From Octopus sinensis (taxonomy: Eukaryota): a stretch of DNA of 9,207 nt. Numbering within the stretch: position 1 is the stretch's first letter; each line of letters opens with the position of its first letter. The stretch lies in the NCBI RefSeq assembly GCF_006345805.1, contig NW_021827982.1, positions 1-9,207 of the forward strand, given 5' to 3'. A model generated the notes under the pieces. That model ran no database searches, had not been told where the DNA came from, and saw only the letters and a program-made list of their open reading frames with translations. Positions 7,291-7,635 of the stretch are shown one piece after another. Made by a program: the position numbers and the translations under genes.

Positions 7291-7635
7291 TAATGGGTAG
7301 AAATTTATATTAATCAATTAAAACCAGTGGCCAAGCATATTAAAAATTTTTTGACATACAAAATTTAGAGGGTTGACTACTAAAAGTGGACAGCCTGTAT
7401 GCTAGATATAGACGTCAAAATCGCCATTTTCCACGAATAATGTGTTCTCAAGAAAAAATTCAGCAAAAAAACCGAAGTGTAAAAATAAGCAAGACAAATG
7501 AAAATATACGAAATAAAAAACGATTACCTTTGTACTAATTAGTTTCACTTGTTAATATTTACGTATAAGGATACGTAAACATCTGCACGATCATCAGCAT
7601 AGTCTGTCGTTTCCGAAACACAATTTCCAGAACTA
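7285..7635 (-). mobile_element. Putative non-autonomous Penelope-like terminal (pLTR) or retrozyme fragment running into (TA)n
   Basis: Contains HHR-B on the minus strand. About 245 nt of T-rich sequence follows the cleavage site and ends in the (TA)n tract. No ORF. The right boundary is uncertain. Confidence 0.5.
7517..7613 (-). ncRNA. Type I hammerhead ribozyme motif (HHR-B), PLE-type
   Basis: Core CTGATGA is at 7597-7591. Stem II base is CGTG/CAAG with one mismatch, topped by GATGTTTACGTAT-CCTT-ATACGTAAATATT. GAAA is at 7546-7543. Stem III is the perfect palindrome ACTAATTAGT (7543-7534). The triplet is GUA (7535-7533). Stem I is CTATG/CAAAG (one mismatch) plus distal GAAACGA/TCGTTTT. Confidence 0.75.

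What the first reader, a model, noticed from the sequence alone, without database searches (positions are those of the whole stretch)
7517..7613. Second hammerhead (HHR-B, minus strand) with intact core and perfect palindromic stem III
Seen: CUGAUGA...GAAA-CUAAUUA-GUA on the minus strand. The apical stem II is 13 bp and completes only on this strand through G-U pairs. Stem I is bipartite with an internal loop. The motif points toward a (TA)n tract about 245 nt downstream. The core nucleotides are unmutated, making it the best candidate for activity, although stem I and the base of stem II each have one mismatch. Inference: two RNAs could pair through ACUAAUUAGU to form a dimeric hammerhead.
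Basis: partly seen in the sequence, partly recalled or inferred. Interest (0 to 1): 0.82.

Follow-up and report, generated by a model that had tools for sequence, protein, structure and literature searches.

The report
Hammerhead mini-retroelement with Penelope insertion marks
The motif sits in one decayed copy of a 534-base non-coding repeat, present in hundreds of copies in this animal genome, whose hammerhead RNA is predicted to cut itself as a pair and which is likely copied into (TA)n tracts by Penelope-like retrotransposons; this copy has two stem breaks and is likely weak or inactive.

Summary
The type I hammerhead is real: core intact, 10-nt palindromic stem III, cut site 7533|7532. 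The claim that it is the best candidate for activity is wrong. This copy has changes at 7588 and 7530 that break stems II and I; the other 29 of 30 aligned copies carry the pairing base. The motif lies in a 5'-truncated copy (7741-7283) of a dispersed, circularly permuted 534-nt non-coding unit. Across 86 copies, all three stems show compensatory changes. For the family majority sequence the predicted dimer optimum equals the double-hammerhead energy. Copies end at one of two fixed sites, nearly always at (TA)n, often exceed one unit, and often form head-to-head pairs. In 95 of 98 informative pairs one arm ends at each site, and the arms share subfamily alleles: the Penelope 'tail' signature. 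A Neptune-type Penelope family with intact ORFs also ends at (TA)n but shares no detectable sequence with the unit. About 35,000 long-stem-II hammerhead-like motifs occur genome-wide (control 1,393). Verdict: a retrozyme-like non-autonomous Penelope partner, a new variant of a known kind. Cleavage and circular RNA are untested.

The parts
7283..7741 (-). 5'-truncated single copy of the 534-nt unit (unit positions u326 to u265 across the cut site; u1 is the first base after the cut); 19 mismatches in 455 aligned bases, one 19-nt deletion
7518..7612 (-). type I hammerhead region, distal stem I to distal stem I
7591..7597 (-). core strand C3-A9 (CUGAUGA), unmutated
7547..7590 (-). long stem II: U.U at 10.1/11.1 (family state), 4-bp basal stem broken at 7588, 2x2 internal loop, 13-bp apical stem
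7534..7546 (-). G12-A15.1 and the 10-nt palindromic stem III (3 bp plus tetraloop as a monomer, 10 bp between two RNAs)
7532..7533 (-). predicted cleavage site A17|C1.1 (not tested)
   Evidence: hammerhead numbering (recalled) applied
7588..7588 (-). change (G where 29 of 30 copies have U) that breaks stem II
7530..7530 (-). change (A where 29 of 30 copies have U) that breaks stem I
7353..7359 (-). family 3'-end site A (u173-179), internal in this copy
7283..7295 (-). family 3'-end site B (u256-272), used by this copy
7235..7284 (.). (TA)n tract abutting the 3' end; inferred insertion target

Best explanation
The motif is the hammerhead of a 534-nt non-coding repeat unit that is likely a non-autonomous partner of Penelope-like retrotransposons (retrozyme-like), and this copy is likely a weak or dead insertion. 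Shown: a permuted unit, copies longer than one unit, two fixed 3' ends at (TA)n, variable 5' ends, head-to-head pairs with one arm ending at each site, and covarying stems. Inferred cycle: (1) rare head-to-tail dimer loci are transcribed; (2) the two palindromes pair into a double hammerhead and release a 534-nt monomer, which is probably ligated into a structured circle; (3) a Penelope RT/GIY-YIG protein supplied in trans cuts both strands of a (TA)n tract and uses the two DNA ends to prime reverse transcription at sites A and B, 93 nt apart, on RNA of one haplotype; (4) the cDNAs stop at variable points, about a third crossing an uncut or religated hammerhead site, and are joined to each other (head-to-head) or to the flank (single arm, as here).
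For: The unit is 534 nt and 31% GC, with the 3' part repeated upstream of the 5' part. Copies picked by a 3'-side pattern: set A, 94 copies, 54 end at A, 35 at B, 5 elsewhere, 88 abut (TA)n, 59 are head-to-head, 9 exceed one unit. Set B, 93 copies, 77 end at B, 9 at A, 7 elsewhere, 78 abut (TA)n, 53 are head-to-head, 19 exceed one unit. Of 125 distinct head-to-head junctions, 95 are A+B, 2 A+A, 1 B+B and 27 have an arm ending elsewhere (p about 1e-24 on 94 of 97). The two arms agree at 707 of 769 diagnostic-site comparisons (92%) versus 63% when shuffled (maximum 70%). PLEs show a 'tail' on only one inverted pLTR (PMC3846280, PMC8557442). A purified PLE protein cuts and extends both strands of AT-rich DNA and starts RT at two internal RNA sites (PMC11167929). 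Covariation: 96.1% of cells pair, 30 both-side changes versus 6.1 shuffled, 0 of 500 shuffles as high. The circular unit folds at -140.1 kcal/mol, z -7.4 sense versus -3.4 antisense (40 shuffles each). Of 4 dimer candidates checked, L063 and L291 have two cores and two cut sites 534 and 530 nt apart. The genome has PLE copies with intact 781-aa ORFs (RT, GIY-YIG, CxxxxCxxC linker) ending at (TA)n. A U.U pair at the base of stem II and better cleavage as dimers are reported for axolotl HHR_Amex2 (PMC7229834).
Against: No cleavage, ligation or circular RNA was observed. No autonomous PLE with detectable similarity to the unit was found (best E 0.79 over 43 loci), so the partner is not identified. 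The compensatory changes trace to a few subfamilies, perhaps 4-5 events, and the shuffle control ignores relatedness. Copies are mostly dispersed, not arrayed as described retrozymes are. Shared arm alleles fit one RNA molecule but also one source locus. 5' ends do not pile up at the cut site (none in u-30 to u7 in set A). Their 2.6-fold excess in the 120 nt after it recurs one unit upstream, and the stretch is 57% T in its first 60 nt, so cleavage cannot be told from base composition. Cleavage was not needed for PLE insertion in vitro (PMC11167929), and 8 of 9 Xenopus retrozyme dimers did not cleave (10.64898/2026.07.22.740005).
Confidence: 0.72

Rival explanations
1. The unit is the terminal repeat (pLTR) of an autonomous Penelope-like element not found here, and all copies are ordinary 5'-truncated ends of it.
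For: Partial tandems, inverted truncated copies, a one-sided tail and (TA)n targets are all standard for autonomous PLEs (PMC8557442, PMC3846280). Only 150 of 5,029 GIY-YIG candidates were scored, and only 43 loci were compared with the unit.
Against: Long copies continue upstream into the unit's own 3' part, never into a shared foreign sequence. Of 187 copies of 150 nt or more, 125 5' flanks hold family sequence, and among the other 62 only one pair shares an abutting flank (70%). tblastn with two PLE ORFs hit 6 family loci. The one upstream in-sense hit (L043) is a decayed relic 1.1 kb away across unshared DNA. The local PLE family uses a different, minimal U3-A8 hammerhead.
Confidence: 0.12
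2. Non-autonomous and PLE-mobilised, but the template is an uncut read-through transcript of partial-tandem loci; the hammerhead cuts little and no circle is needed.
For: 32 of 94 and 22 of 93 copies run through an intact site, with no pile-up at the cut. The longest copy seen is 816 nt, and only 1 of 8 set A copies reaching u-301 passes u-533. Unprocessed RNA was the main PLE substrate in vitro (PMC11167929).
Against: Compensatory changes keep stems I, II and III, including an inner pair that forms only in a dimer. The strongly structured sense-strand circle is what retrozyme circRNAs show. A lineage of 5'-truncated linear copies should shrink, yet copies longer than one unit persist.
Confidence: 0.13
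3. Head-to-head pairs arise by self-priming or fold-back on one cDNA or on an antisense template, not by two target-primed starts.
For: Proposed for PLE inverted repeats (PMC3846280). It would also explain the shared alleles. A few copies invert at the stem III palindrome (L005, L022).
Against: Copying one arm should give two arms with the same 3' end, yet 95 of 98 have different fixed ends. Junction offsets centre on zero with short overlaps or gaps, and arm lengths are uncorrelated (rho 0.10).
Confidence: 0.08
4. The motif is a chance or fossil match with no ribozyme function in the family's history.
For: There is no Rfam hammerhead hit, this copy folds no better than shuffles, and the hammerhead region as a whole is barely more conserved than the rest of the unit (4.9% vs 5.6% mismatch).
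Against: Core positions differ in only 1.5% of cells (partly biased by how copies were found), all three stems covary, and the descriptor is 25-fold enriched genome-wide.
Confidence: 0.03

Closest known systems
Animal non-LTR retrozymes (PMC7229834; bioRxiv 10.64898/2026.07.22.740005)
   Same: Non-coding, low-GC unit with one type I hammerhead per unit; predicted stable circular fold; head-to-tail dimers exist; co-occurs with PLEs. The U.U pair at the base of stem II and the predicted dimer preference resemble axolotl HHR_Amex2.
   Different: 534 nt (170-450 in the 2020 paper; within the 51-972 range of the 2026 preprint). Mostly dispersed and 5'-truncated rather than arrayed. Stem II is about 44 nt with a 13-bp extension instead of about 4 bp. 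Fixed dual 3' ends at (TA)n and A+B head-to-head pairs are not described for retrozymes in the parts read. Circular RNA and cleavage are untested.
Endonuclease-positive Penelope-like elements, Neptune/Naiad type (PMC8557442, PMC3846280, PMC11167929)
   Same: Partial-tandem copies, inverted 5'-truncated partner, a tail on one arm only, (TA)n target, two internal 3' ends, and a hammerhead upstream of the 3' end.
   Different: No ORF. The tail is 93 nt rather than 30-40 nt. No detectable sequence similarity to the local PLEs sampled. Full-size stems instead of a minimal hammerhead.
Minimal type I hammerheads of PLE pLTRs (PMC4209133)
   Same: Type I topology, palindromic helix III proposed to act as a dimer, 5-bp helix I, enlarged helix II, opposite-strand pairs 100-700 bp apart.
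   Different: Helix III has 3 bp plus a tetraloop as a monomer (10-nt palindrome), stem I continues past an internal loop, and helix II is much longer (4 + 13 bp vs 7-8 bp).

Membership tests
Type I hammerhead ribozyme | Conserved core C3 U4 G5 A6 N7 G8 A9 / G12 A13 A14 / A15.1-U16.1, H17 | tested here: met
   Intact in the window copy and in 73 of 86 copies
Type I hammerhead ribozyme | Three stems around the core, stem I open, supported by covariation | tested here: met
   Met for the family; the window copy breaks 2 of 12 proximal pairs
Type I hammerhead ribozyme | Match to an Rfam hammerhead model | tested here: not met
   No hit at E<=1 in the window or E<=10 in majority-type copy L051; the long stem II is the probable reason (inference)
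Type I hammerhead ribozyme | Site-specific self-cleavage; loop I-II tertiary contact | not testable with these tools
   Needs an in vitro assay
Non-LTR retrozyme | Non-coding short unit with one type I hammerhead per unit | tested here: met
   534-nt unit with one hammerhead; no PLE ORF attached
Non-LTR retrozyme | Tandem copies with two complete hammerheads | tested here: met
   L063 and L291, 2 of 4 candidates checked; rare, and no long array was seen for this family
Non-LTR retrozyme | Highly self-paired predicted circle | tested here: met
   z -7.4 sense, -3.4 antisense; prediction only
Non-LTR retrozyme | Expressed as abundant linear and circular monomer RNA | tested here: inconclusive
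   No RNA holder on record; only contigs were available, which show no strand or ends
Autonomous EN+ Penelope-like element | RT plus GIY-YIG ORF attached to the terminal repeat | tested here: not met
Autonomous EN+ Penelope-like element | Insertion signature: partial tandem, inverted 5'-truncated copy, one-sided tail, (TA)n target | tested here: met
Autonomous EN+ Penelope-like element | Target-site duplication | not tested
   Obscured by (TA)n on both sides

The most novel reading that the evidence does not exclude
This genome hosts an overlooked superfamily of tens of thousands of long-stem-II hammerhead elements that live as circular RNAs. Each is inserted by a Neptune-type Penelope protein dimer that primes both ends of one (TA)n break at two fixed sites on a single RNA circle. 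The Penelope 'tail' would then be the obligatory footprint of double priming, and these copies would be a direct genomic record that animal retrozyme circles are Penelope substrates.
Probability: 0.35. Interest if true: 0.78.

Novelty: new variant of a known kind. Interest (0 to 1): 0.55.

Why it matters
Both retrozyme papers read leave open how animal retrozymes are mobilised and only propose PLEs as the helper. Here a non-coding hammerhead unit carries the PLE insertion signature in countable form: two fixed 3' ends, 95 of 98 head-to-head pairs using one of each, and arms of one haplotype. That yields exact predictions (RT starts at u173-179 and u265-272 on a (TA)n target) for an in vitro system that already exists for another PLE, and intact candidate helper ORFs are in the same genome. 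The A+B rule also argues against self-priming as the source of PLE inverted repeats. The roughly 35,000 long-stem-II motifs include this family's type, which Rfam misses; an earlier Rfam-based annotation of a giant squid genome listed 235 hammerheads. The single window copy is ordinary decayed repeat DNA.

Tried and rejected
Rfam scans found no hammerhead. Two same-strand copies 4 kb apart on C1 were tested as the ends of an autonomous element; they are separate truncated inserts around a proline-rich host-gene-like exon. Blastn of the unit against 43 GIY-YIG and other loci gave nothing. L043 was tested as a link to a PLE ORF and rejected. An ADAR-editing trace (A>G over T>C on the sense strand) was absent: rare changes 11.2 vs 11.6 per 1000, p 0.73, 299 copies. 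A pile-up of 5' ends at the cut site was absent. The 2.6-fold drop in 5'-end density past the site (87 in 10,535 nt vs 15 in 4,783 nt, p 1.6e-4; length-matched p 6e-4) is not claimed as evidence of cleavage. The same T-rich stretch one unit upstream is also enriched (7 in 363 nt vs 23 in 5,588 nt), and single-arm copies alone are not significant (p 0.13). RNA search: no RNA holder listed; contigs of four runs guessed to be RNA cover the unit in fragments and say nothing on strand, ends or circles. Conservation in other organisms was not established. No genome-wide dimer count was obtained, so dimer frequency is unknown. Earlier scan notes held nothing for this sequence or genome.

Full report
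Observation. The minus strand of 7518-7612 reads as a type I hammerhead: CUGAUGA at 7597-7591, GAAA at 7546-7543, a 10-nt palindrome at 7543-7534 and the predicted cut between 7533 and 7532 (numbering recalled). The 13-bp apical stem closes only on this strand (-11.0 vs -7.3 kcal/mol with 9 bp on the other). The (TA)n tract (7235-7284) starts about 248 nt after the cut. Rfam lists no hammerhead here or in a majority-type copy, and the 121-nt stretch alone does not out-fold shuffles (z -1.0).

The copy versus its family. A search of the 2.72-Gb own genome gave 1,408 candidates, of which 40 were scored; apart from the window itself they are 92-95% identical. Exact patterns gave 154, 280, 342 and 873 matches, with 0 for each reversed control. 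Among the 30 best loci, the window alone has G at 7588 and A at 7530. These break stem II (G.A) and stem I (A.A). The U.U at the base of stem II is the family state (79 of 86). Of 86 distinct hammerhead regions, 73 have an intact core and 55 also keep all 12 junction-proximal pairs. The window's hammerhead fold lies 7.3 kcal/mol above its MFE (family 3.3). Its double hammerhead (-40.4) loses to another dimer (-46.8), while for the family majority the dimer optimum and the double-hammerhead energy are equal (-57.4, against -52.0 for two monomers).

Covariation. Both-side changes occur in stem I (U-A to C-G, 6 copies), apical stem II (U-A to C-G, 5), and stem III (U-A to C-G, 7; inner A-U to G-C, 3, a pair with only two bases between its partners that can close only between molecules). 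The two commonest polymorphisms in stem II swap A-U and G-U. Overall 96.1% of 2,633 cells pair, and 30 cells change on both sides against 6.1 in shuffles (0 of 500); slid controls pair 24-45%. These counts reflect a few subfamily events, and the shuffle ignores relatedness. The hammerhead region as a whole is only slightly more conserved than the rest (4.9% vs 5.6%; core 1.5%, partly biased by how copies were found).

The element. Long copies carry the unit's 3' part again upstream of its 5' part, giving a permuted 534-nt, 31% GC unit (majority of 9 loci). The window holds u326 to u265 (7741-7283). To avoid bias toward the hammerhead I took copies by 3'-side patterns: 90 loci covering 97 of the first 100 listed of 342 matches (set A, 94 copies) and 90 loci covering 94 of the first 100 of 873 (set B, 93 copies). 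3' ends fall at site A (u173-179) or site B (u265-272): 54 A, 35 B, 5 other in set A; 9 A, 77 B, 7 other in set B. (TA)n abuts 88 of 94 and 78 of 93. 5' ends vary widely. 9 and 19 copies exceed one unit, and 32 and 22 run through the cut site. L063 and L291 are head-to-tail dimers with two cores and two cut sites; L062 has two cut sites and one core, and L292 did not pass. As a circle the unit folds at -140.1 kcal/mol, z -7.4, versus z -3.4 for the antisense strand.

The A+B rule. 59 of 94 and 53 of 93 copies have an inverted partner joined 5' to 5'. Of 125 distinct junctions over all family loci, 95 pair an A-ended arm with a B-ended arm, 2 are A+A, 1 is B+B, and 27 have an arm ending elsewhere and were left out of the ratio (p about 1e-24 for 94 of 97). 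The rule holds in each sampling set (38 of 40, 38 of 39, 19 of 19). The arms agree at 707 of 769 diagnostic-site comparisons versus 63% in 2,000 shuffles, so both come from one haplotype, either one RNA or one source locus. PLE papers describe a 30-40-bp tail optionally present on one inverted repeat (PMC3846280, 9 passages seen; PMC8557442, 12 of 19 passages seen). PMC11167929 (parts 1-2 of 4 read) shows a PLE protein cutting and extending both strands of AT-rich DNA, with two internal RT starts that delimit that tail. I infer double target priming at A and B. Self-priming, proposed in PMC3846280, should give equal ends.

Helper. A GIY-YIG search gave 147 matches of 150 scored among 5,029 candidates. 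Ten fetched loci have open frames of 637-883 aa with YLDD and a CxxxxCxxC-type linker, described for Neptune and Nematis in PMC8557442. Pfam finds RVT_1 (E 1e-6, just under its cut-off) and GIY-YIG in L221. The main family ends at (TA)n and has a minimal U3-A8 hammerhead near its end, a variant reported in PMC4209133 (part 1 of 4 read). It shares no detectable sequence with the unit, and no shared upstream sequence or attached ORF was found for the unit. The helper's identity is therefore inferred from the shared target and signature only.

Results against or neutral. 5' ends do not pile up at the cut. Their density drops 2.6-fold past it, but the same T-rich stretch one unit upstream is also enriched and single arms alone are not significant, so this cannot be credited to cleavage. 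There is no strand bias for A>G. The RNA search listed no holder on record as RNA, and the contigs laid cannot show strand, ends or circles.

Wider picture. A descriptor for long-stem-II hammerheads matches 35,063 places against 1,393 for the control with an 8-nt stem III, and 5,039 against 1,579 with a 10-nt one. Of the first 30 loci, 25 have a fully self-complementary stem III and 14 a stem I of 4 bp or more. Five opposite-strand pairs show two different distances to (TA)n, and two families are homologous to this unit downstream of the cut (78% over 110 nt, E 3e-15; E 4e-8). The host looks like an octopus from its SINE-like repeats; that is recalled, not tested.

Comparison and novelty. It works like the animal non-LTR retrozymes of PMC7229834 (parts 2-4 of 6 plus passages read) and the 2026 preprint 10.64898/2026.07.22.740005 (parts 1-3 of 5 read; supplements not available), both of which propose PLEs as helpers and leave the mechanism open. 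It meets the sequence-level features of that kind; expression is untested. It differs in its long stem II, its dispersal and the quantified dual-end signature. Searches found no description of such elements in cephalopods or of the A+B rule for retrozymes. An Octopus vulgaris repeat annotation has no occurrence of 'hammerhead' or 'ribozyme' in its main text (PMC13282606, 5 passages seen), and a giant squid paper lists 235 Rfam hammerheads (PMC6962438, 2 passages seen). Subscription papers and supplements or repeat libraries that I did not see may already hold this family. Verdict: real motif, decayed copy, new variant of a known kind, interest 0.55.

Noticed in passing
   Followed up: partly
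genome-wide: About 35,000 matches to a long-stem-II hammerhead descriptor with an 8-nt stem III (control 1,393), in many families. Some are head-to-tail arrays, such as four copies about 400 nt apart at C1:4297863-4299124 and three about 445 nt apart at C1:4621805-4622757.
   Followed up: partly
L221:1721-5041, L222-L224, L229: Young Neptune-type Penelope family with intact 781-aa ORFs, a 3' end at (TA)n, and a minimal hammerhead with the U3-A8 core variant and a 6-nt palindrome about 75 nt before the end.
   Followed up: partly
L221:5764-6459: Sibling hammerhead element whose 3' region is distantly homologous to u63-u272 of this unit (score 67 vs 37 +/- 6, maximum 64, in 200 shuffles), including the motifs before both 3'-end sites.
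   Followed up: partly
window 140-477, 1731-1897, 2825-3025, 3462-3631: Dispersed repeats found in many fetched loci; they recall octopus SINEs and an RTE-type tail (from memory, not tested).
   Followed up: no
window 7792-8068: Degenerate direct duplication, 72% over 134 nt, offset about 150-160 nt.
   Followed up: no
window 7742-7765: Short repeated snippets at the 5' junction of the copy, resembling templated insertions from end joining (inference).
   Followed up: no
L043:1577 and L045:1578: Two unrelated insertions are both truncated at u463, with short added letters that resemble the reverse complement of the stem I 3' arm, hinting at template switching on stem I.
   Followed up: no
L061:6222-6542: Two separate copies flank a proline-rich, WH2-like open frame (label recalled), so they probably lie in introns of a host gene.
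   Followed up: no
window 6815-7157: 18-bp minisatellite, about 20 copies, just beyond the (TA)n target.
   Followed up: no
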